Shown piece by piece: positions 15,334 to 27,714 of a stretch of DNA of 64,000 bases. Origin of the DNA: a virus (taxonomy: Duplodnaviria > Caudoviricetes); the IMG/VR virus record IMGVR_UViG_3300020331_000002. One strand, 5' to 3'. The notes under the pieces were generated by a model. It saw only the letters and a program-made list of their open reading frames with translations, made no database searches and was not told where the DNA came from. Both the position numbers and the translations under genes were made by a program. The first letter of the stretch is position 1, and every line of letters starts with the position of its first letter.

Positions 15334-15519
15334 ATGAAAGTTGACCCTCAGATTCGTTGGAGACAAGTAGTGCCTTGGATCGAGTCAAAGAGTCAAAAGC
15401 GTAACGACTTACTCAGAACATCTGGATCGCCATGTGTAGATAATCCAATAGAACAAATTTATAAAAGTAGCTTCAAACCGAAACATCGAAAACCGTCTTA
15501 TATTGACATTTATGTCTAA
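15334..15519 (+). CDS. Small hypothetical protein (61 aa)
   Basis: AAGGA SD; CTAAATA at 15299-15305. Confidence 0.55.
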   Translation: MKVDPQIRWRQVVPWIESKSQKRNDLLRTSGSPCVDNPIEQIYKSSFKPKHRKPSYIDIYV

Positions 15520-15587
15520 TTACTAATAGATGCAAACGTAGTTTCAGGTTAACGGGCTTAGATATAATACCTGCGCCGAATTCGATT

Positions 15588-17051
15588 ATGAAAACGGCAA
15601 TTATAAAAATATTAGACGAAGTAAACGTCAAAATAGAAGGCGCTGATCCGCTAGTCAGACGTAAAATGGTAGACGCTTGTCGGTTCTTTGTACCGAATGC
15701 TCGCCATACGCCTGCGTATAAATTAGGCCGATGGGACGGGTATAAAAACCTCTGTACTATCGGTGGTAGAACTTATCTAGCCATGCTGGAAAGAGTTCTG
15801 CCTATTCTAATAGAAGCAGGATACCACGTTGACATAGACGACCAACGCCAAGACTTTAGTTTCATTAAGTTCGATGAGCTTAAGTCAGATTCTTACTCTC
15901 ACTTTATATGGCCTGAAGGCCATCCTTTCGAAGGGCAAGCCCTTTCTCTGTATGACCACCAGCTAGACGTACTCAACGGTTGTGGTCAGAACTTACAAAG
16001 TGTTTATATTGCGCCTACCGCAGCCGGGAAGACGATCGTCACAGCTATACTGAGTGACATGATAGGCAAGTATGGCGGTTCTCTCGTAATAGTTCCAACT
16101 AAAGACCTTGTAGACCAAACATGTGAAGAATACCACAACATGGGTTTGGATTACGGTAAGTTTTACGGGGACGAGAAAAACGTCACAGCGCAACATATAG
16201 TTGGCACATGGCAGTCACTTGAACAGGCGCGTCTTAACACTAAAAAGCAGAACGGTAAGGTAACTATCGATCAAGTATTGGACGGCAAAGTCGGCGTTAT
16301 TGTGGATGAAACACACAAAGCAAAAGGCACTGTATTACTTGATCTACTTTGTAACGAAATGGCGCATATTCCTATTCGCTGGGGTCTAACAGGTACGTTG
16401 CCAGAAGACGAGATTGGTCAGTGTTCGCTAGAGTGTGCGGTGGGTCCTACATCTGGTAAAATAGATAACCGTGACCTACAAGAAAAAGGCATCCTTAGTA
16501 AGTGTCATATAGATGTGTTGCAGACTGTGGAGTTATACGAAAAGATAGGTGACTATCACACTGAGAATAAGTTCTTAACTAGTGATCGCAAGCGTATAGA
16601 GAGTATAGTTGAGAAACTTATCTTGCCTAAGAAGGATGGCCAAAACGCGCTTATCCTTGTTGATAAAATACCGACTGGTAAATTGCTTGAAGAACTAATC
16701 CCAGGAAGTATATTCGTTCACGGCGGTACCCCTAAAGACAAGCGTAAAGAAGCATATGACTTGGCGAAAACCAACGACGACATAACGGTAATTGCTACAA
16801 CCGGGGTAGCGTCAACTGGTATCTCGATTAACCGTATATTCAAATTGTTTATGTTTGAGCTGGGCAAGTCGTATATCAAAATCATTCAGACGATAGGTCG
16901 TGGCTTGCGTATAGCCAAAGACAAAGACTTTGTCAACATCTACGACATATGTGCAAACACCAAGTATTCTAAGAAGCACTTGACTGTGAGAAAGAAACAC
17001 TATCGCACTCATGGCTATCCGCATAAAGTGAACAAGGTGGAAATCTACTGA
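15588..17051 (+). CDS. uvsW: UvsW-like superfamily 2 helicase
   Basis: WDG, APTAAGKT, IVDETH, GLTGT, TGISI and QTIGRGLR motifs. Confidence 0.92.
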   Translation: MKTAIIKILDEVNVKIEGADPLVRRKMVDACRFFVPNARHTPAYKLGRWDGYKNLCTIGGRTYLAMLERVLPILIEAGYHVDIDDQRQDFSFIKFDELKSDSYSHFIWPEGHPFEGQALSLYDHQLDVLNGCGQNLQSVYIAPTAAGKTIVTAILSDMIGKYGGSLVIVPTKDLVDQTCEEYHNMGLDYGKFYGDEKNVTAQHIVGTWQSLEQARLNTKKQNGKVTIDQVLDGKVGVIVDETHKAKGTVLLDLLCNEMAHIPIRWGLTGTLPEDEIGQCSLECAVGPTSGKIDNRDLQEKGILSKCHIDVLQTVELYEKIGDYHTENKFLTSDRKRIESIVEKLILPKKDGQNALILVDKIPTGKLLEELIPGSIFVHGGTPKDKRKEAYDLAKTNDDITVIATTGVASTGISINRIFKLFMFELGKSYIKIIQTIGRGLRIAKDKDFVNIYDICANTKYSKKHLTVRKKHYRTHGYPHKVNKVEIY

Positions 17052-17557
17052 TGATAAAAATGATTGCAGCACACGACACCAATAAAGGCATCGGTATTGA
17101 CAATAAGCTGCCGTGGCATTTGCCTGAAGACCTCGCTCATTTTAAACGTGAGACTGAAGGCAAATATGTCCTGATGGGTAGAAAAACTTTCGAAAGTATC
17201 GGAAGGCCCTTGCCGAATAGGCACTCAGTTGTCTTGACACGTGATACCGATTGGCCTTATAATAGTGACTTGGCTAGTAATGATAACTTCGACACTTTGA
17301 ATACGCGTGTAGAGCTGCTAGAGTTCTTAAACTACGCTGAACAACGCGGCGAAGATGTCATAGTTATAGGCGGCAGTGAGATTTACCAAATGCTGATTAA
17401 GTCAGCTGATGAGCTTATTATCACTGTCGTTGAGGGCGATTATAAGGTTGATTCTTATTTCCCTGATTACGAGCAACTTTTCGAAGAATACGAAAGAAGT
17501 CAGCACACAAGTAAAACTGGCTTAGGCTATACAATAATAAGAATGAGAGCCGTATGA
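17051..17557 (+). CDS. folA: Dihydrofolate reductase
   Basis: GIGIDNKLPWHLPEDLAHFK, LMGRKTFESIGRPLPNR, IGGSEIY. Confidence 0.97.
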   Translation: MIKMIAAHDTNKGIGIDNKLPWHLPEDLAHFKRETEGKYVLMGRKTFESIGRPLPNRHSVVLTRDTDWPYNSDLASNDNFDTLNTRVELLEFLNYAEQRGEDVIVIGGSEIYQMLIKSADELIITVVEGDYKVDSYFPDYEQLFEEYERSQHTSKTGLGYTIIRMRAV

Positions 17558-18078
17558 AAATACTCACACCCGATAACACACTGTACGACTTGGATCAAAT
17601 GCCTGACATGGTTGACGATGTCAAGTTCAGCGTGCTTGACTTCAGTAAAGGCCGCCGTAATATAGATGAGCCTGATTTCTATTTCAGTAGCTTAATCTTT
17701 ATGGAGCGCTTTTCTACTCCTGCTGCGCTACTGCAAATAGGTGAATTTGAACTTAAGGTACCACTAAACTGGTCTATCATGATTACCAGTAATGAGTTTG
17801 ATGAAATGTGCATGGTGCCTATTAACTCAATACCCAAGCGCAACTTTACCGCGTTCGTGTATAACCCGTTAAAAGGCGGCCTACCATCAGCACTACCTGT
17901 TGAAATTAAAACGCTGTATCGCAACTATGAATGGCACGCACCTAAGGTGAACCCGGCTAACTTGATTACTATGCCTATTAGTAATACAGAAAACGCTATT
18001 AGAGGTCCACACTGCGTCTATATCGCACGCGAAACAGCAAACGTTCCAAAGACATTCTCACTAGCGGATATACTGTGA
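17554..18078 (+). CDS. Hypothetical all-beta protein (possible degenerate Hint-like fold)
   Basis: ATGA overlap with folA; beta-strand spacing pattern (see findings). Confidence 0.7.
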   Translation: MKILTPDNTLYDLDQMPDMVDDVKFSVLDFSKGRRNIDEPDFYFSSLIFMERFSTPAALLQIGEFELKVPLNWSIMITSNEFDEMCMVPINSIPKRNFTAFVYNPLKGGLPSALPVEIKTLYRNYEWHAPKVNPANLITMPISNTENAIRGPHCVYIARETANVPKTFSLADIL

Positions 18079-18079
18079 T

Positions 18080-18547
18080 ATGAGCACTACGAGCAAGCGC
18101 AAAATTGATCTTAAATCGATGTTGAACGCAGTTGCCATGGCCGACTTTGGATGGTACGATCGTTTAGACGAAGACCAACAAAAAGAGCTCAGCATTTATG
18201 CGCTTAATCGGTTTATTAGTAATTCGTCAAAATACCCTGATATGTCTATTATTATGGTAAATGACTTAGCTAACGTTCATGCGAACGTATTCTATAAGCA
18301 CAAAGCGATGCACTGGAAGCTCGTATGTGCTGCGATCGGCATGGGGCATGCTATGCGATTTGAATACGTGCCGCCGCCGAAACGTAAAAAACTTGATCCT
18401 ATGACTTCTATTGTCATGGAAGCCAATCCTTTATGGAATGAGACTGAAGCCCAAATAGTACTAAGTAGTATGAGCAAGAAAGAAAAACGCTTGTATCTTA
18501 AAGACAGGGGCTATCAGAACGATGAGATTAAAAAGTTGGTTAAGTAA
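18080..18547 (+). CDS. Possible clamp loader small subunit (T4 gp62-like)
   Basis: 'YALNRFIS', 'W-L-CA', KRKK and 'EAQIVLS-MSKKE' pattern resemble gp62; weak by-eye match. Confidence 0.45.
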   Translation: MSTTSKRKIDLKSMLNAVAMADFGWYDRLDEDQQKELSIYALNRFISNSSKYPDMSIIMVNDLANVHANVFYKHKAMHWKLVCAAIGMGHAMRFEYVPPPKRKKLDPMTSIVMEANPLWNETEAQIVLSSMSKKEKRLYLKDRGYQNDEIKKLVK

Positions 18548-19224
18548 TGGCAGATAAGTTTGAATGTAGATTTTGTAAGAAGAAGTTTTCTAAGGAAAAT
18601 ACTTTACTTGTCCATAAATGCATGAAAAAACAGCGTTACGAAGATCGTGACACTGTTGGCGCTCGCTTAGGGTTAGAGGCCTATAATCTGTTTCTAAAAT
18701 CATGTTCAAACCGCAAGCAAGAAACACAAGAGTCGTTTATACACTCTAAGTATTACAAAGACTTTGTGAAGTTTGGTAGAGCTCTGTGTGACTTAAACCC
18801 GCTCAGTACCGAGGATTATATCAAATACTTGGTGAAGGAAGGCGTAGCACTAAACAAGTGGTGCCGCGCCGAGACTTATGATAAGTACATCATAAATCAC
18901 TTAGAAACTGAACCGGTGCAACGCGGGCTTGAACGTTCTATAACCGTAATGGCCGATTGGGCAGAGCGTAATAATATGACTTACGCTGATTACTTTAATC
19001 ACGTGTCTACGTTTGAAGCAGTTTCTCATATTCAGAGCGGTAAGATAACACCGTGGCTTATGTACTTGAGTGACGGCGGCCAAGCCCTTATGGAACGGTT
19101 TAGCCAAGATCAGATCAAAATAATTCAGGGTATAATTAACCCCGGTGAATGGCAGCTTATTTTTAATCAGCGCCGTAGTGATGTTAACTTTGCTTTAGAG
19201 ATTATAGATTCAGCATCCTTATGA
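18547..19224 (+). CDS. Hypothetical protein with N-terminal zinc finger
   Basis: FECRFCKKKFSKENTLLVHKC; coupled to both neighbours. Confidence 0.75.
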   Translation: MADKFECRFCKKKFSKENTLLVHKCMKKQRYEDRDTVGARLGLEAYNLFLKSCSNRKQETQESFIHSKYYKDFVKFGRALCDLNPLSTEDYIKYLVKEGVALNKWCRAETYDKYIINHLETEPVQRGLERSITVMADWAERNNMTYADYFNHVSTFEAVSHIQSGKITPWLMYLSDGGQALMERFSQDQIKIIQGIINPGEWQLIFNQRRSDVNFALEIIDSASL

Positions 19225-19853
19225 AAAGACATGGTGATATAGACATCGACGTTTGTGATCGAGACACTCTGTTAAAAGAATTAAATCATATAGACGCCTC
19301 TATGATAGGTCGTAATGGTGCCCTAACCCGACATAACGTTGGTGTGTACGGGCACGCCGTACCTGTAGATCCTTTCAGTAACTTGTGTTCACTTACATAT
19401 ACTGAGGCAGAAGAAGCAGGCTTTAAAAAAGTCGACCTACTTAACCTATCCAGTTTGAGCTTCTTTAAAAATAAACGCCATTTGCGCAATGTCATAGCCA
19501 AAGACCCCGATTGGGATATGTTTCTCGACAAGGGCGTTGTTATGCAGTTGAGTCAGATATCAGGTCACTACGGGCTTTTACGAAAGAAACGTCCGCGTTC
19601 TGTATTGGAGTTGGCTATGTTCATCGCGCTTATACGACCAGGCAAAAGTCACTTAAGAGAAAAGTCTTGGTATGAAATGTCTTCGGAAATATGGCAAAAA
19701 GGCACCGATGGTTATCAATTCAAAAAGAGTCACGCCATCGCTTATGCTTTGAACATCGTTGCTGAAATGAACCTGATCAAGTACGAGAAGGTTAAACTGA
19801 ATCAGTACGTAGATGTAATTACTGATCAAAAAGTTATTATCGACGATCTGTAA
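19221..19853 (+). CDS. Miniature DnaE (family C DNA polymerase)-like protein, 210 aa
   Basis: GDIDIDV, RHNVGVY, KVDLLNL, ALIRPGK and GYQFKKSHAIAYAL match the DnaE motifs PDFDVDF, HAGGVV, KFDFLGL, ALFRPGP and GYGFNKSH. Confidence 0.8.
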   Translation: MKRHGDIDIDVCDRDTLLKELNHIDASMIGRNGALTRHNVGVYGHAVPVDPFSNLCSLTYTEAEEAGFKKVDLLNLSSLSFFKNKRHLRNVIAKDPDWDMFLDKGVVMQLSQISGHYGLLRKKRPRSVLELAMFIALIRPGKSHLREKSWYEMSSEIWQKGTDGYQFKKSHAIAYALNIVAEMNLIKYEKVKLNQYVDVITDQKVIIDDL

Positions 19854-19860
19854 ATTCTAC

Positions 19861-19889
19861 TTGAAATAACATTCATGATCTGTTACCTT
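19861..19889 (+). promoter_or_regulatory. Sigma70-like promoter
   Basis: TTGAAA-17 nt-TACCTT with extended TG. Confidence 0.5.
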
Positions 19890-19914
19890 ATGTATAAAAT
19901 ACAAGGTGAATAAT

Positions 19915-20817
19915 ATGAATGTAGAAGAAAGACTAAGTAGAATCAACTCAGTAGTTGAATACTTTCACAACCAATACAGTGAGATAGACAACGCTACTGA
20001 GCGCCATAATATTTCGTATGCCAACAAGCTATCACCTCGACCAGCATATGCGGCCGCCCTGGTGCTTGACCGCAACATTATCCCTACGGGTACTGGCTCG
20101 TTGTTCTCAGATGACCGCTACGAAATCAGCTATCTTATACGCGCTGGGCGCACTACCGGTGAGATACTCGAGATAGATACTCGCCTTCATCAAGAAACTA
20201 TATCTGCAGGCCAAATTGACTCGTGCATGCGCACAGCAAATACAGCAAACGGATCTCGCGACCTGGGCTATCGTTCTTTGAGTGAAGCGGCCGCGAATGT
20301 GTTTATTGCAGGTATGTTAGTCGAAGCACGCAAAACGTCACTCGAGTTCCAACTAATCATTCTTGACAAAGAAAACAAAACTGAATCGGTGTTTGCTGTA
20401 TCATCGACGGAACCGTCACCCGGAGGTAAGCTGGAATCTTTCGACATCCAGTTTACTGACTTCGCACATTTAGGTATACCTGATTCTTGGATAACAATTG
20501 ATCTGATGGCAGAAAATTCAGCGTTTACTAGTGTACAACATAGCAGAACAAACGTACTGGGTGACGACCCAGTCACCTACTATAGTGGCCCAACTAAAGT
20601 GCAAAAAACGTACAGTGGTTTTACCAATGCTAGATCTGGTAACATGATGGTGCCTGATACTGTGCAGGTAATGTGGGTGACTGATGAAGGCGCCACAACT
20701 TATGACAACTTTTTTGTATTCGTGAAAAAGGAGTGTCCGGAAGCAATACCGCACCTTGTCTTGAATTACGGATATCCGGAGGATTTCGATGAACAAAACA
20801 ATATCATTAAACCGTGA
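19915..20817 (+). CDS. Hypothetical protein
   Basis: About 300-aa ORF; AAGGTG SD before ATG 19915. Confidence 0.7.
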   Translation: MNVEERLSRINSVVEYFHNQYSEIDNATERHNISYANKLSPRPAYAAALVLDRNIIPTGTGSLFSDDRYEISYLIRAGRTTGEILEIDTRLHQETISAGQIDSCMRTANTANGSRDLGYRSLSEAAANVFIAGMLVEARKTSLEFQLIILDKENKTESVFAVSSTEPSPGGKLESFDIQFTDFAHLGIPDSWITIDLMAENSAFTSVQHSRTNVLGDDPVTYYSGPTKVQKTYSGFTNARSGNMMVPDTVQVMWVTDEGATTYDNFFVFVKKECPEAIPHLVLNYGYPEDFDEQNNIIKP

Positions 20818-21376
20818 CAACACGTTCTTCACCTCTGATTGGCATTTTGGCGACAAGAACATCATAAAAAATTGCAATCGTCCCTTTAGTGATATAGACG
20901 AAATGCACGCTGCCTTAATTGATATTTGGAACGCAAAAGTTTCTGATAATAGTACGGTAGTTAATATGGGCGACTTTGCTTTCTGGGGTCCGTCTAAGTT
21001 CGGTGAGCTAGGCAATGTACTTACACAGTTAAAGGGCAATATGCTATTTGTGCCTGGAAATCATGACCGGTTAAATCTATGGTACAATACACTCGACGCG
21101 TTTCCTGAGTTAAAAGATAAAGTGCGTATATTGCCGCCTGTCGCTGATTTTAGAGTCGGTAAACAACATATCGTCGGGTGCCACTACGCAATGATGATAT
21201 GGAATAAGCAACATTATGGCGCCTGGCACTTATACGGACACTCCCATGATATGCACTTAACTGGTATCGGTCTAAGCATGAATGTATGTATTGATGCTCA
21301 CCCTGATTTTGATTTGTTTACGTACGAAGAGATTGAAGAAAAGATATCAAAGTTAGAGATTTTTCGTCCGTTCTAA
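20789..21376 (+). CDS. Calcineurin-like metallophosphoesterase
   Basis: SDWHFG, MGDFAF, PGNHD, CHY and LYGHSH motifs. Confidence 0.92.
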   Translation: MNKTISLNRDNTFFTSDWHFGDKNIIKNCNRPFSDIDEMHAALIDIWNAKVSDNSTVVNMGDFAFWGPSKFGELGNVLTQLKGNMLFVPGNHDRLNLWYNTLDAFPELKDKVRILPPVADFRVGKQHIVGCHYAMMIWNKQHYGAWHLYGHSHDMHLTGIGLSMNVCIDAHPDFDLFTYEEIEEKISKLEIFRPF

Positions 21377-21392
21377 AAAATCAAATTAAATC

Positions 21393-21421
21393 TTGATTTG
21401 GCAGGAAGTAGAAATTATAAT
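21393..21421 (+). promoter_or_regulatory. Sigma70-like promoter
   Basis: TTGATT-17 nt-TATAAT. Confidence 0.7.
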
Positions 21422-21471
21422 ACTTTAAAATTTGGAACCCTTATAAAGTGTAAGGGTGTAAGGAGTATAAA

Positions 21472-22908
21472 ATGACAACACATTTTAACACGCAACACAC
21501 TCCTGTAGAAGAAGTTACTGAAGTAGAAGCCCGTACAGCAAACGGCGCAGTAACTAACATCACTTCCGGTGAGAAATCACTTGATTTGTTCTTTGTGGCA
21601 GGTGCATCCCGTAACATGGCCGACGACGAGATCATCATAATGTTTGATGAAGCGCACACCGAAAACCCAGATCTGACGTTTCGTGTATTGCAATGGGCTC
21701 GTGATGTGCGAGGCGGAGCAGGCGAACGACGTTTCTTTAAAACAATAATGAAACACTTGGTTGCTAACCAACGCACTTATGGTGCCAAAAATGTCAAGGC
21801 ACTACTAACCAAGTCGTCTGAGATTGGTCGCTGGCGCGACTTGCTTGACTTGTTCAACAAGTGCACCGATGCAAACAAGAAATTCATCGGTCAGTTGTTT
21901 AACGAAGCGCTTGATTCGGGCAACGGCTTGGCTGCTAAATGGCTTCCGCGCAAAGGTAAATTCGCGCGAGCTGTTCGTACGTCTATGGGCTACAAGGACA
22001 CGCCGAAGGAATACCGTCGCAAGATTGTTGACTTGACTAAAGTAGTTGAGACCCAAATGTGCCAAGGCAAGTGGGACGAGATCAATTATTCGCACGTACC
22101 GTCAGTCGCGTTTAAGAAATACCGCAAGGCGTTCCTGCGTCATGACCCTGTACGTTTTGAAGAATTCATCCAATCAGCTATTGAAGGTGAAACAAAGGTT
22201 AACGCCGGCGCAATATTCCCGCATGAAATACTTGCGCCTTTAGGTAAGAGAACAGTAACGTCAAAAACCGAAGTCGACGCCATGCAAGCACAGTGGCAAA
22301 ACTTGGCTGACTCGATGTCAAATGCGCCTGATGTACTGCCTATGATTGACGTTTCTGCGTCAATGAGAGGTGATCCTATGCATATTGCTGTGTCGCTCGG
22401 CATGTACTTGGCTGAACGTAACACTGGTCAATTCAAGAATGCGTACATGACTTTCGAGTCACGACCTCAGTTTGGCTTCGTGAAAGAGGGCGCTAAAATT
22501 GACGCTCGTTACAAGGATATTTTACGCGCAGGTTGGGGCGGCAGCACTGACTTATCGGCAGCGTTCAAGAAAATCCTCGAAGTTGCAGTGAACAACAATG
22601 TTCCGGCTGACCATATGCCTAAGATGTTGCTTGTGTTATCTGACATGGAGTTCAATTCCTGGGGTAACCGCGGTCTTACATCCACTGTAAAAGACTTGTT
22701 TAAAAAGGCAGGCTATGAGTGTCCTACTATTGTGTTCTGGAACTTAGCTGCTCGACCTGGCAACAACCCGGTAAAAGCTACTGATAAAGACATGGTAATG
22801 GTGTCTGGATTTAGCCCGGCCATAGCGAAGACCATTATAGAAGGCAAGGACCTATCACCGATGGGAATAATGCTTGACGCTATTATGAAAGATCGCTATA
22901 CACTGTGA
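21472..22908 (+). CDS. DUF2828-like TROVE/vWA (Ro60-related) protein
   Basis: RDVRGGAGERRFF, GRWRDL, LAAKWLPR, INYSHVPS, MIDVSASM (MIDAS), GGSTD, LSDMEF, IVFWNL, SGFSP. Confidence 0.88.
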   Translation: MTTHFNTQHTPVEEVTEVEARTANGAVTNITSGEKSLDLFFVAGASRNMADDEIIIMFDEAHTENPDLTFRVLQWARDVRGGAGERRFFKTIMKHLVANQRTYGAKNVKALLTKSSEIGRWRDLLDLFNKCTDANKKFIGQLFNEALDSGNGLAAKWLPRKGKFARAVRTSMGYKDTPKEYRRKIVDLTKVVETQMCQGKWDEINYSHVPSVAFKKYRKAFLRHDPVRFEEFIQSAIEGETKVNAGAIFPHEILAPLGKRTVTSKTEVDAMQAQWQNLADSMSNAPDVLPMIDVSASMRGDPMHIAVSLGMYLAERNTGQFKNAYMTFESRPQFGFVKEGAKIDARYKDILRAGWGGSTDLSAAFKKILEVAVNNNVPADHMPKMLLVLSDMEFNSWGNRGLTSTVKDLFKKAGYECPTIVFWNLAARPGNNPVKATDKDMVMVSGFSPAIAKTIIEGKDLSPMGIMLDAIMKDRYTL

Positions 22909-22930
22909 GGCGTAGTGCGCCCTAGTATTT

Positions 22931-22957
22931 AAAGAAGGGGCTTTTGGTCCCTTCTTT
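22931..22957 (+). terminator. Intrinsic terminator
   Basis: AAAGAAGGGGC-ttttg-GTCCCTTCTTT. Confidence 0.8.
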
Positions 22958-22995
22958 CGCATTGCGAATAAATACATAAAAATACAGGGAGACAC

Positions 22996-23283
22996 ATGTA
23001 CACAAGCTTTCAACTTAAGAGTTGTGCAAAAACTCGATACTATATCAGGACAGTGAACCTAAGTACGCATTGTATGCTGACTGAAGAGTTACTGGTGATA
23101 TATGGTGAAGAGTTGTGCGATGAAAAGTATGAACCGGGCGTTACCTTACCAAAAGGCTTTCGTGTTGAGTTTTATGAACTTGATGATTTCCTCAATACAG
23201 ATATGGCCATAAACATAGACAATAACAAAAAGGAAACAATACGTGAAAGAACGCTATCAGGCATTGATTGCCCCGCTGCTTGA
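22996..23283 (+). CDS. Hypothetical protein
   Basis: AGGGAG SD; ATAAATA at 22968-22974. Confidence 0.6.
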   Translation: MYTSFQLKSCAKTRYYIRTVNLSTHCMLTEELLVIYGEELCDEKYEPGVTLPKGFRVEFYELDDFLNTDMAINIDNNKKETIRERTLSGIDCPAA

Positions 23284-23824
23284 ACTCGATCCCGGATTTC
23301 AAGAGTATTTCGATTTTGCTTATAACGCGCACATTGATCGCAAAAGAATCGGGACAAACGATCTATATATTATCCACCCCATTAACGTAGCGTTAAACGT
23401 CCTGGAAACGGGCTTGACGCACGATGAAAAGGTGATGGCAATCCGTGTAGCTGTAATGCACGATGTCGTGGAAGACGAAGACGTAGAGCTTGTTACGGTA
23501 ATTAATGAATTCGGTACTGAGTTTGCGTATCATCTGTATTACACTTATACAGAGATAACCAAGTCTTCAGGCAACCGCAAGTTTAGGAAAATACTTGAGG
23601 CCAATCACTATGCTGCTGGTACCCGAGTATCACAGACCGTCAAAGTGTGCGATGCTGCCGATAATATAATGACGATTCATTTGAAGTCGGGCCGCAAGTT
23701 TGCATATGATTATATGAATGAAAAGGTTACACTTCATCATAAACTTGCATTGGCCGATCCATTGTCACTCAAGTTATTTGTTAAAAGGATGTCGATTGTT
23801 AAACAAGCACTAAAGGCTATCTAG
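23243..23824 (+). CDS. HD-domain hydrolase, Mesh1/small alarmone hydrolase-like
   Basis: AH...RKR...YIIHPINVA, AVMHDVVED, and VKVCDAADN match the SpoT/Mesh1 HD pattern. Confidence 0.8.
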   Translation: MKERYQALIAPLLELDPGFQEYFDFAYNAHIDRKRIGTNDLYIIHPINVALNVLETGLTHDEKVMAIRVAVMHDVVEDEDVELVTVINEFGTEFAYHLYYTYTEITKSSGNRKFRKILEANHYAAGTRVSQTVKVCDAADNIMTIHLKSGRKFAYDYMNEKVTLHHKLALADPLSLKLFVKRMSIVKQALKAI

Positions 23825-24192
23825 CCCATATTAGTTACCAGCTTAACAACGCGCTTCTTGCCGAATTTCTTTTGACACATCTCGTCTAAACTGACGTAGG
23901 GTCCAAACAAGACTTCTACGTCTTTTTCCCTGTACGTTCGTACAGTATGTGAAAACGCTTTCATCTCTTCAAATAAATACACACCAATCGGGATTGATCT
24001 ATTTGTTTCCCACCACCAGTTTGAACCGAGTTTAAGGAATAACACTTTTTCATCGTGGTCCGTAAGTGCTTCGAAATCATAGAAGGTAACGGCCTTACTC
24101 GCTACATTTTCAATAATTCCTAAATATTCGTCATCTCCTATTTTCAAGCCAGTTAGAAAAGGAAATTTTTTAGTTAGTTCGTCTTGGGTCAT
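23821..24192 (-). CDS. Hypothetical protein on the minus strand
   Basis: AGGT SD on the minus strand; KFPFLT and NWWWETNRSIPI motifs. Confidence 0.75.
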   Translation of the reverse strand: MTQDELTKKFPFLTGLKIGDDEYLGIIENVASKAVTFYDFEALTDHDEKVLFLKLGSNWWWETNRSIPIGVYLFEEMKAFSHTVRTYREKDVEVLFGPYVSLDEMCQKKFGKKRVVKLVTNMG

Positions 24193-24232
24193 TTTGCTAC
24201 CTGCTAAATATCTTTAAAAAGGCATATTTGTT

Positions 24233-25054
24233 GTGTTGTACACCATATATTTATGTAACCATGAAAGTACCGTTTTCGTGGGAATACCGAGGACTTATAG
24301 CATGAATGACAATGATACCATCACCCTCCACCGCGGTGTTGACAATACTCATTATTTTAGAGTCCGTAACCGTGACATGAAACGCCAGAATGTGAGCGGC
24401 CTTGTGGTTATGGCAAAGATCGTGGATCGCATGAATGGCGATAAAGTATTTGAAAAAAGATTAATACAAACTGACGATGATCAGTTTTCGTTAAATGTAC
24501 TCGAAGGTGAGCTACTAGAGGTTGAGCCTGGCTATTACGAGATGGTTCTTGAGTCTATGGAAATGTTCGACACCAACAATTACGAACATAACCCGCGCCA
24601 ACCTCTTTACCGGGACTTGAACGGCGAGATTCGTTTCGAAGTAGAGGTAACAGGCCACGCAGATAGCACACCGCGCCCTAGTAGAGAAGAGATAAAACCG
24701 TTTGAAAAATGGCTTCCTACGTTAAAAGACGGTGTAACGGTGTATAGTAGTTCAGCTATACCATGTAACGCTCTAAGAAACCACAGAAACAGCCTACACA
24801 CGATGTCTATCCAAGCAGATAACTTTAGCGGAACGCTAGAGATATACGGTACTCTGGAACTAGATCCGCCGCCGGATAATAATTCTTGGTTTCCTGTTAC
24901 TGTACAAGATTTGCCTGTAAACGAGATACAGATGGATAAGTTTACCGGCACCCATGCCTTTAACGTAGTGGGTAATCTTTACTGGGTGAAGTTCATCCTC
25001 AAAGGTGATTTGGACAACTTAGGAACTTTCGACAAACTGACTTGGCGATCTTGA
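24233..25054 (+). CDS. Hypothetical, probable virion structural protein
   Basis: CTAAATA at 24204-24210; beta-rich. Alternative start at ATG 24302. Confidence 0.7.
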   Translation: MLYTIYLCNHESTVFVGIPRTYSMNDNDTITLHRGVDNTHYFRVRNRDMKRQNVSGLVVMAKIVDRMNGDKVFEKRLIQTDDDQFSLNVLEGELLEVEPGYYEMVLESMEMFDTNNYEHNPRQPLYRDLNGEIRFEVEVTGHADSTPRPSREEIKPFEKWLPTLKDGVTVYSSSAIPCNALRNHRNSLHTMSIQADNFSGTLEIYGTLELDPPPDNNSWFPVTVQDLPVNEIQMDKFTGTHAFNVVGNLYWVKFILKGDLDNLGTFDKLTWRS

Positions 25055-25112: not shown

Positions 25113-26321
25113 ATGAGCTGGGATCAGAAGTTACTAGATACTATACTAGAGAATTTCGGGCCACATAAAATTTCAAGAAAGGGTTTCAGGACTAGAAATT
25201 GCCCGATGTGTGTTACTAAAGGACACTCGCCTGACACCAAGAAACGTTTCGGTATGAAAGTCGATCATAAAGGCTTCGGCGGGTCATGCTTCAATTGCGG
25301 CTTTAAGTTCAAATACGAATACCACAAGAAACAGATGAGCAAGCCGCTCAAGTCATTTATGCGCCAACTCGGCGTTAAAAAGCAACTCATAGATGAGATT
25401 AAGTACGGGCTATTCGAGGATCTACATAGCGGTGTCATCTCTGATTTGATGCTTGAACCGGAGCCCGAAGAAACTGAAGTTCCGTTCGCTGAATTATTCA
25501 AAGACAAGAAGCCCAAACTCAACGAAGTTGCCCAAAGTCTTATAAAAGACGAGAAACAAATACGTCAGATACTTAGGACTAGGATAACAGATAATGTTAT
25601 GCCTGAGTTCAACGAGTTTAGTACCCGTTACGTGCAAATAACAAAGCGCTGGTCACGTGAGCATAGTTATCCTGGCGATGCAAAACCTATGAGTTATTAC
25701 CTTGATAGAGCTGAACTAGGACATCCTATTCCTGCTGATGTGAATGAGTGTTTGCTTTATATGTATGAACGTGACTTACTTGAGTTTGACGATATATGTT
25801 GGAGTTACGCTGTCACTAAAGAAGCAGGCAATCGTATAATACTTCCGTTTGAATTTGGCGGTAAACGGATCGGTTATACGGCGCGTGCAGTAAACGACCG
25901 TGCTGCTAAGATCAAAAAGTATCATTCAATGATGCCGGACGATGCGATATTCAATTACCACTTATTCCATAACAACTACAAACGAACGTTTGCGGTGTTG
26001 TATGAAGGTGTTATTGACGCGTATGTTATGCAAGGCATGGCATGTGGCGGAAGAAACATTAACGATGATCAGATATACATGATCAAAAATTTAGGCATGC
26101 CTGTAATTGTTGTGCCCGATAACGACAAAGACGGCGACGACTTGATTGACATAGCCATAAGGGAAGGCTGGTCAGTATCGTTTCCGCCATGGAAACATAA
26201 ATTTAAGGACGCGGCAGCCGCTGCTGCTAAGTACGGTAGGATTTATACAATCCAAAGTATACTAGCTAGCGTAGAGACTAATCCACTAACAATAAATCTA
26301 AAAAAGGATATGAATGTCTGA
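25113..26321 (+). CDS. DNA primase (gp61/DnaG-like)
   Basis: Zn ribbon CPMC..CFNC, RIILP-GYTAR, TOPRIM EGVID, PDND and KDA motifs. Confidence 0.88.
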   Translation: MSWDQKLLDTILENFGPHKISRKGFRTRNCPMCVTKGHSPDTKKRFGMKVDHKGFGGSCFNCGFKFKYEYHKKQMSKPLKSFMRQLGVKKQLIDEIKYGLFEDLHSGVISDLMLEPEPEETEVPFAELFKDKKPKLNEVAQSLIKDEKQIRQILRTRITDNVMPEFNEFSTRYVQITKRWSREHSYPGDAKPMSYYLDRAELGHPIPADVNECLLYMYERDLLEFDDICWSYAVTKEAGNRIILPFEFGGKRIGYTARAVNDRAAKIKKYHSMMPDDAIFNYHLFHNNYKRTFAVLYEGVIDAYVMQGMACGGRNINDDQIYMIKNLGMPVIVVPDNDKDGDDLIDIAIREGWSVSFPPWKHKFKDAAAAAAKYGRIYTIQSILASVETNPLTINLKKDMNV

Positions 26322-27714
26322 TTACATCCAAGAGTATACTCCGCAGGTCGAGGAGTTATTCATTCAATTTTTCTTAAGCGATCCTGAATTATTTGTGCGC
26401 TGTCGTAATGTGATTAAGCCTGATCACTATGCCTCTGAGACAAATAAAAAGACTGTCGATTTCATGGTAAAATATGCTGATGAATACAGTGCATTGCCTG
26501 ACTTGGATCAATTAAAAGCGGTGGTGGGCAAACAATTCAACGTAACAAAGGACCTGCAAGATGAGCACAAGGAATGGTTCCTTGATAATTACGAAAAGTT
26601 TGCTCGACACAAGGAAATCATCAAAGCTGTTCTTGATGCGCCGCGACTGATTGAAAAGAAAGAATACGGTAGCGTTGAGCAACTAGTTAAAGAAGCAGTT
26701 CAAGTAGGCCTCGTCAAAGACTTGGGTACTGATTACTTCGACGACCCGTTAGGGCGCTTGCAGCGCATGAAAGAGAAGAAACCTCTTGTGTCTACGGGAT
26801 ACCGAGATTTAGACCACGCGTTGTTCGGTGGCGTTGAAGTAGGTTCACTTAACATTTATGCAGGGCAGTCCGGGACTGGTAAGAGTATTTTCCTACAAAA
26901 CTCTGCAAGAAAGTCTGTCATGCGTGGCGAAAATGCGATGTACATATCACTGGAACTGTCAGAGGACTTGTGTGCGTTGCGTCTAGACGCTATGTTTGCG
27001 GGCCTAAGCACACAAAACGTGATGAGGGATAGTGAAGACGCCTCGACTCGTATTGCTATGTTTGCTAAAAAGTATGGCGGCTCACTACAGATAAAACGTT
27101 TTCCGTCCGGAACCACTGCTGCTGAGATTCGTGCTTACGTTAAAGAGTATCAGATCCAGACAGGTCGTAAAGTAAACAAACTGTGCGTTGACTACTTGGA
27201 CTTATGTTCGCCTTACCGTACCAAAGTAAATGCAAGTGATGTATTCACGAAAGACAAATATGTGTCGGAAGAGTTGCGTGACTTAGCTGCTGAATTAGAT
27301 GTTGTATTGGATACAGCCTCGCAGCTTAACCGTGACAGTCACGAAGCTGTTGACTTTGGGCACCAGCACATTGCAGGCGGCGTATCTAAAATCAACACAG
27401 CTGATAACGTGTTTGGAATTTACGTAACTAACACTATGAAAGAGAACGGTCGTTATCAGTTACAACTTTTAAAGACACGTTCTTCAAGTGGTGTAGGTAA
27501 GCGTATTGATTTAAAATACAATCCTGCTACTATGCAGATGGACGATCTCGAAGAAGGCGAACGCGGAAGTATTGAGACACAAACCAGTTCTATTCTAGAT
27601 TCTATAAATAAGAAAGGAACAATGGGCAAAGAGCCGCCCGCACCTACGCAAGATGCGTCTAGTACAGTTGACGCGTTCTCTAAAGTTAGGAATAGTTTGC
27701 GTAGAAGTGATTAA
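26314..27714 (+). CDS. Replicative DNA helicase (gp41/DnaB-like)
   Basis: GQSGTGKS, YISLELSE, CVDYLDL, TASQLNR and LLKTR motifs. Confidence 0.93.
   Translation: MSDYIQEYTPQVEELFIQFFLSDPELFVRCRNVIKPDHYASETNKKTVDFMVKYADEYSALPDLDQLKAVVGKQFNVTKDLQDEHKEWFLDNYEKFARHKEIIKAVLDAPRLIEKKEYGSVEQLVKEAVQVGLVKDLGTDYFDDPLGRLQRMKEKKPLVSTGYRDLDHALFGGVEVGSLNIYAGQSGTGKSIFLQNSARKSVMRGENAMYISLELSEDLCALRLDAMFAGLSTQNVMRDSEDASTRIAMFAKKYGGSLQIKRFPSGTTAAEIRAYVKEYQIQTGRKVNKLCVDYLDLCSPYRTKVNASDVFTKDKYVSEELRDLAAELDVVLDTASQLNRDSHEAVDFGHQHIAGGVSKINTADNVFGIYVTNTMKENGRYQLQLLKTRSSSGVGKRIDLKYNPATMQMDDLEEGERGSIETQTSSILDSINKKGTMGKEPPAPTQDASSTVDAFSKVRNSLRRSD

What the first reader, a model, noticed from the sequence alone, without database searches (positions are those of the whole stretch)
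19221..19853. 210-aa 'mini-DnaE' retaining all three catalytic aspartates
Seen: GDIDIDV, RHNVGVY, KVDLLNL, ALIRPGK and GYQFKKSHAIAYAL occur in the correct order within about 170 residues. Established: E. coli DnaE is about 1160 aa, with catalytic D401/D403 (PDFDVDF) and D555 (KFDFLGL). The span from DxD to FNKSH is roughly twice as long there, and DnaE also has PHP, HhH and OB domains that are absent here. Inference: this is an internally pruned family C palm that may still be catalytic. It could be one chain of a split polymerase, a primer-elongating or gap-filling enzyme, or a nucleotidyltransferase with a new role.
Basis: partly seen in the sequence, partly recalled or inferred. Interest (0 to 1): 0.72.

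Follow-up and report, generated by a model that had tools for sequence, protein, structure and literature searches.

The report
Half of split mini Pol III
This 210-residue gene of an uncultured 311-kb marine giant phage is the metal- and template-binding half of a stripped-down bacterial-type DNA polymerase whose nucleotide-binding half is a separate gene 106 kb away; the two-gene enzyme was described from sequence in 2021 and has never been tested at the bench.

Summary
The ORF at 19221-19853 (+) holds all five motifs in DnaE order. The three aspartates (D6, D8, D72 = E. coli D401, D403, D555) are invariant in 40 diverse homologs. It is not a whole mini-DnaE. It lacks the essential NTP-binding G-S motif, which sits on a second small protein encoded 105.8 kb away on the other strand, outside the window. 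The two proteins tile E. coli DnaE about 277-398 and 398-781. The gene break falls in a 5-residue gap just before the DxD motif. The thumb (433-510) and the index-finger body are missing. The genome has no PHP or HhH domain but does have a 978-aa family-B polymerase. This is the split minimal Pol III alpha of group 2.2 jumbo phages (Iyer et al. 2021, PMC7824862), so it is a new member of a known, biochemically untested kind. This scan reached the same verdict many times on other genomes. Added here: a residue-by-residue check against the 2026 E. coli ternary-complex structure, in which the primer-phosphate Lys, template-contacting RPG, base-stacking Tyr and rNTP-gate His are all kept; a complex prediction that passes its controls; and one natural single-chain (unsplit) 375-aa form. 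Polymerase activity remains an inference.

The parts
19221..19853 (+). C-terminal unit ('piece B') of the split minimal DNA Pol III alpha. It covers the DxD strand, the small palm subdomain with the third Asp, the middle finger with RPG, and the helix-loop-helix with Tyr and His. It ends in a long helix and a disordered tail (about 190-210).
   Evidence: phrog_11778 at E 1.1e-60. AF2 model with pLDDT 90.7. VIA Z 9.0 to E. coli alpha 2hnh, model 2-192 to chain 398-781. D6, D8, D10, H38, K70, D72, R139, P140, K142, Y165 and H171 are invariant in 40 of 40 homologs.
18547..19224 (+). Conserved upstream gene (phrog_11058) with an N-terminal C2H2-like zinc finger. Its stop codon overlaps the start of piece B (ATGA). 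Function unknown. It is context, not a shown part of the enzyme.
   Evidence: Orthologs sit upstream of piece B in PA5oct (directly), RaK2 and Phosso (one to three small genes between).
17554..18547 (+). Two further conserved virus-only genes of the same block (phrog_11279 at 17554-18078 and phrog_11758 at 18080-18547). Function unknown.
15588..17051 (+). UvsW-type helicase, the upstream anchor of the conserved replication block.
   Evidence: Pfam ResIII, Helicase_C and UvsW_N. phmmer E 7e-137 to the Phosso helicase.
23821..24192 (-). Small reverse-strand gene (phrog_11637). In relatives it directly follows piece B. Here it is separated from piece B by a four-gene insertion.
   Evidence: A like gene also follows the single-chain form in L017.
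25113..27714 (+). gp61-type primase (25113-26321) and DnaB/gp41-type helicase (26314-27714), the downstream anchor of the block.
   Evidence: phrog_47 and phrog_19. Same order in RaK2, PA5oct and Phosso.

Best explanation
The ORF encodes the C-terminal, Mg2+- and template-binding unit of a two-chain minimal family-C DNA polymerase, the split minimal Pol III alpha of group 2.2 jumbo phages. Its partner is a protein of about 167-186 aa encoded at G000:C1:269265-269825, 105.8 kb away on the opposite strand. The partner supplies the rigid N-terminal part of the large palm subdomain, including the G-S motif (R127-G128-S129) that binds the incoming nucleotide. The G-S strand of the partner pairs, without a covalent link, with the DIDID strand at the N-terminus of this protein. 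This rebuilds the Pol-beta-like nucleotidyltransferase sheet. D6, D8 and D72 then hold the two metals. K70 holds the primer's terminal phosphate. R139-P140-G141 contact the templating base. Y165 stacks on the incoming base. H171 excludes ribonucleotides. The enzyme has no thumb, no index-finger body, and no PHP, HhH, OB or clamp-binding parts. It is therefore expected to be a distributive, dNTP-selective, template-directed auxiliary polymerase that works beside the phage's 978-aa family-B replicase in replication or repair. Shown here: homology, the exact tiling of the DnaE core, co-occurrence of the two genes, residue conservation and a natural fused form. Inferred: physical association (predicted only), polymerase activity and biological role.
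For: Identity: phrog_11778 at E 1.1e-60. The PDB profile search returns only DnaE chains, in four collinear blocks. Foldseek's top 16 hits are all Pol III alpha or PolC. VIA Z is 9-10. Partner: PF07733 hit above cut-off, phrog_11127 at E 2.2e-36, and its model residues 61-164 superpose on E. coli 277-398 at Z 8.9-10.2. Tiling: the piece A profile ends at E. coli 393 and the piece B profile starts at 399. Mini residues 11-37 equal E. coli 406-432 in length and H38 aligns with H511, so the thumb is cleanly absent. Functional residues named in the E. coli ternary complex (bioRxiv 10.64898/2026.06.29.735100) are invariant in both families. Co-occurrence: B is in 96 and A in 100 GenBank phage records, with matching genus tallies, and the two genes are always apart. 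Fusion evidence: P0236, 375 aa, is A plus B in one chain. Complex prediction: score 0.87 against a best control of 0.53. That mark was reached by 58 of 80 solved complexes and 2 of 110 mismatched pairs. The runs agree in at least 91% of contacts and the partner's pLDDT is at least 83. The interface is A 115-132 with B 1-13, 16-24, 43-48 and 66-71. Context: no PHP or HHH_6 domain in the complete genome, PolB present, and a conserved UvsW...primase-helicase block. Prior description: Iyer et al. 2021.
Against: No biochemical or genetic test of this family was found in the literature searched. The complex pass may only reflect likeness to solved single-chain DnaE structures, because the two chains are halves of one known fold. 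Three dNTP-contacting residues of the E. coli index finger (R709, K714, K715) have no aligned counterpart. E. coli R390 is Asp or Glu in the piece A family. A polymerase with no thumb has no experimentally studied precedent in family C that I know of. The two genes are far apart and on opposite strands, and co-expression was not shown.
Confidence: 0.8

Rival explanations
1. The A/B pair does assemble but is not a templated DNA polymerase. It would be a nucleotidyltransferase with another job, such as template-independent tailing, primer-end modification or synthesis of a small nucleotide product, or a regulator that binds primer ends.
For: The thumb and index-finger body are absent. R709, K714 and K715 have no counterpart, and R390 is replaced by an acidic residue. 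The Pol-beta-like fold is used by many non-polymerase transferases (established knowledge). The phage already has a full family-B replicase.
Against: The residues that contact the templating nucleotide (RPG), stack on the incoming base (Tyr), gate against the 2'-OH (His) and hold the primer phosphate (Lys) serve templated dNTP addition, and all are invariant. The gene sits in a helicase...primase-helicase block.
Confidence: 0.12
2. The 210-aa protein is a self-sufficient mini-DnaE that is catalytic on its own.
For: It carries all three metal-binding aspartates and folds confidently alone (pLDDT 90.7).
Against: It lacks the G-S motif strand. E. coli R362A is reported inactive and G363/S364 bind the dNTP. 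The missing strand is encoded by a gene that co-occurs with it in essentially every phage and is fused to it in P0236. Its N-terminal strand is at the predicted interface.
Confidence: 0.04
3. It is a decayed, inactive remnant of a DnaE gene, kept for a structural or no role.
For: Extreme size reduction. Pfam models barely detect it (finger domain E 0.048, below cut-off).
Against: There are 714 representative clusters at 50% identity and more than 1100 at 90%, with every catalytic residue invariant at 40-50% overall identity. Within the ORF, the two listed differences from the estuary strain are at third codon positions.
Confidence: 0.03
4. It is a fragment produced by a frameshift, assembly error or intein/intron-interrupted longer gene.
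For: None found beyond its small size.
Against: The length is constant in hundreds of independent contigs. There are no indels in an independent strain. The upstream gene ends in an ATGA overlap with its start. The partner is 105.8 kb away on the other strand. Piece A ends within about 10 residues of the FERFL-equivalent and piece B starts 5 residues before DxD, which leaves no room for intein halves.
Confidence: 0.01

Closest known systems
Split minimal DNA polymerase III alpha of group 2.2 jumbo phages (Iyer, Anantharaman, Krishnan, Burroughs, Aravind 2021, Viruses 13:63, PMC7824862)
   Same: Everything that defines it: an N-terminal NTP-binding unit and a C-terminal Mg2+/template-binding unit on distant genes, no other Pol III domains, a family-B polymerase alongside, and a RaK2/PA5oct/Atu_ph07-type phage.
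   Different: Only details of this copy. It comes from a divergent uncultured marine lineage; the nearest homolog outside its own cluster is 52% identical. The halves are 105.8 kb apart on opposite strands. A four-gene insertion separates piece B from its usual downstream neighbour.
Bacterial DnaE / PolC (family C replicative polymerases; structures 2hnh, 3e0d, 5lew, 3f2b)
   Same: Pol-beta-like palm, the Asp triad, the G-S motif, RPG and the Tyr/His helix-loop-helix. The order is collinear and the structural Z is 9-10.
   Different: Two chains in place of one. No PHP, thumb, index-finger body, ring or little fingers, HhH, clamp-binding motif, OB or tau-binding domain. About 350 residues in total against about 1160.
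Single-chain minimal Pol III alpha (P0236, 375 aa, ENA metagenome contig, locus L017)
   Same: Same two modules with the same motifs, and the same downstream reverse gene.
   Different: The modules are joined by an 11-residue linker at the exact point where this phage has the gene break. It was seen on only one 2.4-kb, 25% GC contig, and no second copy was found.
Cyanobacterial split DnaE joined by a split intein (recalled from memory, not tested against a sequence here)
   Same: A family-C polymerase encoded by two distant genes.
   Different: There the halves carry intein pieces and are spliced into one full-size chain, and the break lies in the fingers region. Here there is no room for intein halves and the break lies inside the catalytic palm, so association must be non-covalent.
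Two-gene family-B polymerases of some T4-like phages and archaea (recalled from memory)
   Same: A precedent for a DNA polymerase catalytic core assembled from two separately encoded polypeptides.
   Different: An unrelated fold (family B). In those cases the split enzyme is the main replicase. Here it is an extra enzyme beside an intact family-B polymerase.

Membership tests
Split minimal Pol III alpha of group 2.2 jumbo phages (Iyer et al. 2021), C-terminal unit | Homology to the Pol III alpha catalytic core with the Mg2+-chelating acidic residues and template-binding elements conserved | tested here: met
   D6, D8, D72, K70, R139-P140, Y165 and H171 are invariant. VIA Z is 9-10.
Split minimal Pol III alpha of group 2.2 jumbo phages (Iyer et al. 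2021), C-terminal unit | A separate N-terminal NTP-binding unit (G-S motif) encoded by a distant gene in the same genome | tested here: met
   Piece A is at C1:269265-269825, 105,802 bp away on the opposite strand. RGSS is invariant in its family.
Split minimal Pol III alpha of group 2.2 jumbo phages (Iyer et al. 2021), C-terminal unit | No other Pol III alpha domains in the phage (PHP, HhH and so on) | tested here: met
   PF02811 and PF14579 have no match at E<=10 in the complete 310,672-bp genome, with positive controls working. phrog_405 hits only the two pieces. OB and tau-binding domains were not searched separately.
Split minimal Pol III alpha of group 2.2 jumbo phages (Iyer et al. 2021), C-terminal unit | It accompanies a family-B polymerase and a T4-like replication set (UvsW, primase, DnaB/gp41) in a RaK2/Atu_ph07-type jumbo phage | tested here: met
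   A 978-aa PolB ORF and no PolA. UvsW, primase and DnaB are in the window. Relatives are RaK2, PA5oct, CBB, 121Q, Atu_ph07 and Phosso.
Split minimal Pol III alpha of group 2.2 jumbo phages (Iyer et al. 2021), C-terminal unit | The two units reconstitute one active enzyme | not testable with these tools
   Only indirect support: co-occurrence, a natural fusion and a complex prediction that passes its controls. No activity data exist.
Canonical bacterial DnaE/PolC | A single chain with an N-terminal PHP domain, a thumb, full fingers, (HhH)2 and a clamp-binding motif | tested here: not met
   No PHP or HHH_6. Thumb residues 433-510 and index finger about 642-748 have no counterpart. The chain ends at the equivalent of E. 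coli about 781.
Split-intein DnaE (trans-spliced) | Intein halves flanking the break point | tested here: not met
   Pfam finds no intein or Hint domain in piece B. Piece B starts 5 residues before DxD, and piece A ends within about 10 residues of the FERFL-equivalent.

The most novel reading that the evidence does not exclude
The mini enzyme is the core of a multi-subunit family-C polymerase. In this reading the missing thumb, index-finger and clamp-tethering functions are supplied in trans by the virus-only proteins that travel with piece B: phrog_11279, phrog_11758 and the zinc-finger protein phrog_11058, whose stop overlaps the start of piece B. This would give a thumbless, open active site specialised for a task the family-B replicase does poorly, such as extending primase products or filling gaps on heavily modified phage DNA. 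The block is conserved from this marine phage to PA5oct, RaK2 and Phosso, but conserved gene order in these phages is not evidence of physical association, and nothing tested here links these proteins to the enzyme.
Probability: 0.1. Interest if true: 0.7.

Novelty: new member of a known kind. Interest (0 to 1): 0.3.

Why it matters
This is the smallest known version of the bacterial replicative polymerase core, about 350 residues in two chains, and it is widespread. It is found in 96 GenBank phage records, at least 577 IMG/VR loci and 714 protein clusters at 50% identity. Nobody has shown what it does. If it is active, it would define the minimal requirements for family-C catalysis: no thumb, no index finger and no PHP. 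It would also be a tractable model for how that polymerase family arose, and it would explain why T4-like giant phages keep a second polymerase. For this scan the finding itself is not new. The residue checklist against the 2026 ternary-complex structure and the single-chain natural form are useful starting points for an experiment.

Tried and rejected
1. Megablast of the locus against GenBank phages found no match. The phage has no close sequenced relative.

2. A word-indexed search for longer (fused) relatives found nothing. It was insensitive: the exhaustive profile search later found the 375-aa fused form that it missed.

3. Searches for further copies of the single-chain form found nothing. 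There was no hit in viral contigs. The two metagenome hits (L018, L019) turned out to be ordinary full-size DnaEs.

4. I suspected that the 193-aa ORF at 23243-23824, which occupies the slot piece B has in relatives, might be a paralog. It is an HD phosphohydrolase.

5. I asked whether piece B's disordered C-terminal tail is a clamp-binding peptide like the PolB tail. PolB ends in ...FGNLFTFN and piece B in ...KVIIDDL, with no likeness, so I dropped the idea.

6. I asked whether the DnaQ-like exonuclease 2.5 kb from piece A is a conserved partner. No exonuclease is annotated near piece A in PA5oct or 121Q.

7. Atlas look-ups of two of the three upstream cassette proteins returned only virus-only unnamed clusters or nothing.

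8. Transcription evidence is not conclusive. Metatranscriptome contigs from one sample cover 19289-19552 and much of the block, but such libraries can hold DNA and contigs cannot show strand or level. Bins without cover are not evidence of silence.

9. In the 141-kb Alishewanella phage, phmmer with this phage's proteins found no cassette gene beside piece B and PHROGs matched neither of the two upstream genes scanned. This may reflect divergence and not absence.

Full report
**What is there**

The window is the minus strand of G000:C1:118684-182683. G000 is a complete 310,672-bp virus record with direct terminal repeats. The ORF at 19221..19853 (+) encodes 210 residues.

| Motif | Residues |
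|---|---|
| GDIDIDV | 5-11 |
| RHNVGVY | 37-43 |
| KVDLLNL | 70-76 |
| ALIRPGK | 136-142 |
| GYQFKKSHAIAYAL | 164-177 |

The start codon overlaps the stop of the upstream gene in an ATGA arrangement. Pfam barely detects the protein: the finger domain scores E 0.048, below its cut-off. The protein matches phrog_11778 over its full length at E 1.1e-60. That family has a 197-position profile and is annotated 'DNA polymerase'.

**It is a real, stable small gene**

- A word-indexed search found 1120 homologs of 115-368 aa. The listed ones are 183-218 aa, and the nearest one outside its own cluster is 52% identical.
- An exhaustive profile search found 714 representative clusters at E<=1e-3 and 381 at E<=1e-10.
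- In 80 IMG/VR contigs the ORF is 185-220 aa, with one copy cut at a contig end.
- An estuary strain from an independent study is about 98.4% identical over 9 kb. It spans the locus in one 65-kb contig without indels. The two listed differences inside the ORF are at third codon positions.

**Relationship to DnaE**

A profile of 40 diverse homologs (alignment A1) returns only Pol III alpha chains from the PDB. The best is M. tuberculosis DnaE1 (5lew) at E 3.7e-4, matched in four collinear blocks. The AlphaFold2 model is confident, with pLDDT 90.7 and pTM 0.79. Foldseek's top 16 PDB matches are all Pol III alpha or PolC. VIA-align results:

| Chain | Z | Aligned | rmsd | Model range to chain range |
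|---|---|---|---|---|
| PolC 3f2c | 10.0 | 205 | 6.1 Å | 1-208 to 968-1368 |
| Taq ternary complex 3e0d | 9.6 | 190 | 3.6 Å | 1-192 to 458-838 |
| E. coli alpha 2hnh | 9.0 | 185 | 4.0 Å | 2-192 to 398-781 |
| Best unrelated chain | 3.5 | | | |

**It is only half of the catalytic core**

The same genome has one other match to the Pol III alpha palm family PF07733, at 24.8 bits against a cut-off of 23.9. It lies in a 186-aa ORF at C1:269265-269825 on the plus strand. That is 105,802 bp from piece B and on the other strand. This 'piece A' belongs to phrog_11127 at E 2.2e-36. Its family carries an invariant WGVGRGSSVSS block (alignment A2).

I aligned both family profiles to E. coli K-12 DnaE:

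- Piece A covers residues 316-393 (E 5e-11 for that comparison).
- Piece B resumes at residue 399.
- The gene break therefore falls in a 5-residue gap just before the DxD motif.

The piece A model (pLDDT 80.4) superposes on E. coli 277-398 at Z 8.9-10.2, with rmsd 2.8-3.1 Å over about 100 residues. A 2026 cryo-EM preprint on E. coli Pol III (bioRxiv 10.64898/2026.06.29.735100) describes 271-393 as the rigid part of the large palm subdomain. It describes the following segment, which carries D401 and D403, as mobile. The phage gene break coincides with that boundary.

**What is kept**

The preprint lists the residues around the incoming dGTP, the templating base and the primer end. Their counterparts in the mini enzyme:

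| E. coli residue(s) | Role | Counterpart | Conservation |
|---|---|---|---|
| R362-G363-S364 | G-S motif on the dNTP; R362A inactive | Piece A R127-G128-S129 | 35/35 |
| D401, D403 | Metal ligands | Piece B D6, D8 | 40/40 |
| D405 | | Piece B D10 | 40/40 |
| K553 | Primer phosphate; K553A inactive | Piece B K70 | 40/40 |
| D555 | Third catalytic Asp | Piece B D72 | 40/40 |
| R639-P640-G641 | Contact the templating nucleotide | Piece B R139-P140-G141 | R and P 40/40; G, A or S at 141 |
| Y754 | Stacks on the incoming base | Piece B Y165 | 40/40 |
| F756 | | Piece B F167 | 38/40 |
| H760 | Steric gate against rNTPs | Piece B H171 | 40/40 |

**What is lost**

- Mini residues 11-37 match E. coli 406-432 in length, and H38 aligns with H511. 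The thumb (433-510) is therefore absent as a clean block.
- G141 to Y165 is 24 residues, against 113 for G641 to Y754. The index-finger body, with R709, K714 and K715, is gone.
- E. coli R390 is Asp or Glu in the piece A family.
- The complete genome has no PHP and no HHH_6 match, with positive controls working.
- The full-length phage DnaE profile phrog_405 hits only the two pieces.

**Do the halves work together?**

- Co-occurrence. tblastn finds piece B in 96 GenBank phage records and piece A in 100. The extra piece A hits include full-size DnaE genes of Bacillus phages. The genus tallies are nearly identical. The two genes are always separate, from 11 kb apart in a 141-kb Alishewanella phage to more than 200 kb apart in Phosso.
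- Fusion. One representative, P0236 (375 aa), is a single chain. Residues 7-184 match the piece A profile (hhalign probability 99.4%, E 1.4e-21). Residues 189-372 match the piece B profile (E 1e-49). A short linker joins them exactly at the break point, and every motif is kept. The gene is followed by the same small reverse gene that follows piece B in relatives. It is known from one 2.4-kb, 25% GC contig only, and I found no second copy.
- Complex prediction. The score is 0.87 against a best control of 0.53. That mark was reached by 58 of 80 solved complexes and 2 of 110 mismatched pairs. The runs agree in at least 91% of contacts and the partner's pLDDT is at least 83. Piece A residues 115-132 (the G-S strand) touch piece B residues 1-13, 16-24, 43-48 and 66-71. 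Because these chains are halves of a fold solved many times as one chain, the pass may reflect that likeness. It supports binding but does not show it.

There is no room for intein halves at either end, so association must be non-covalent.

**Genomic context**

The phage has a 978-aa family-B polymerase, no family-A polymerase, and a DnaQ-like exonuclease ORF 2.5 kb from piece A. That proximity is not seen in PA5oct or 121Q.

Piece B lies in a conserved block with this order: UvsW helicase, phrog_11279, phrog_11758, phrog_11058 (zinc finger), piece B, phrog_11637 (reverse strand), a structural protein, primase, DnaB-type helicase. PA5oct, RaK2 and Phosso share this order. In this phage a DHFR gene and a four-gene insertion interrupt the block.

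**Prior knowledge**

Iyer et al. 2021 (PMC7824862, sections 3.4.1 and 3.5) describe exactly this. They report a phage-specific minimal Pol III alpha in group 2.2 jumbo phages. It is split into an N-terminal NTP-binding protein and a C-terminal Mg2+- and template-binding protein, encoded by distant genes, alongside a family-B polymerase and without other Pol III domains. They suggest a role in synthesis of one strand or in repair. I found no later experimental paper.

Earlier follow-ups in this scan reached the same conclusion on many other genomes. My tests were done independently of those notes and agree with them.

**Verdict**

The thing is a new, divergent member of a known but biochemically untested kind. 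The most likely mechanism is a non-covalent two-chain, thumbless, dNTP-selective, template-directed auxiliary DNA polymerase. I am highly confident in the identity. Activity and role are inferred, at roughly 0.6.

Noticed in passing
L017:1066-2193 (ENA metagenome contig, 2415 bp): A natural single-chain (unsplit) minimal Pol III alpha of 375 aa, with piece A and piece B modules joined by an 11-residue linker. The contig is 25% GC. Seen once only.
   Followed up: partly
L055:15127-16818; also L057, L059, L060, L075: In 5 of 80 viral contigs that carry piece B, a 563-575-aa PHP-less single-chain DnaE-like protein lies 4.5-8 kb away. It matches PF07733 at E 1.6e-43 plus the finger domain, aligns to E. 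coli DnaE 320-814, and has CRAH in place of KSH. It is a mid-size family-C form that co-occurs with the mini enzyme.
   Followed up: partly
window 19906-23824: A four-gene insertion between piece B and its usual downstream neighbour: a 303-aa ORF with no family match, a calcineurin-like metallophosphoesterase, a 478-aa DUF2828/DUF7788 vWA protein (phrog_850, 'RNA-binding protein', which I read as Ro/TROVE-like), and an HD phosphohydrolase. It may be an RNA-repair or nucleotide-salvage island.
   Followed up: no
window 17554-19224: Three virus-only proteins of unknown function (phrog_11279, phrog_11758, and zinc-finger phrog_11058) lie upstream of piece B here and in PA5oct, RaK2 and Phosso, where other small genes are sometimes interposed. 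The last one overlaps piece B's start by 4 nt.
   Followed up: partly
G000:C1:266261-266734 (outside the window): A DnaQ/RNase T-type 3'-5' exonuclease ORF (263 aa) lies 2.5 kb upstream of piece A, with a MazG-like pyrophosphatase and a dCMP deaminase flanking piece A. The exonuclease proximity is not seen in PA5oct or 121Q.
   Followed up: partly
L018:1366-5382 (metagenome contig OKRZ01000398.1): A full-size DnaE whose PHP domain is a separate 382-aa ORF, ending 67 nt before a 933-aa PHP-less DnaE ORF. This is a different kind of split, or a frameshift.
   Followed up: no
G000:C1:72030-74963 (outside the window): The family-B polymerase ends in ...FGNLFTFN, which resembles the C-terminal clamp-binding tails of T4-type polymerases (a resemblance recalled from memory).
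   Followed up: no
window 31394: The window and the genome record differ at a single base (G in the window, T in the record).
   Followed up: no
window 15500-24500: Near-identical DNA occurs in marine and estuary metagenomes of several studies (2014-2022). Contigs from one marine metatranscriptome sample cover much of the replication block.
   Followed up: partly
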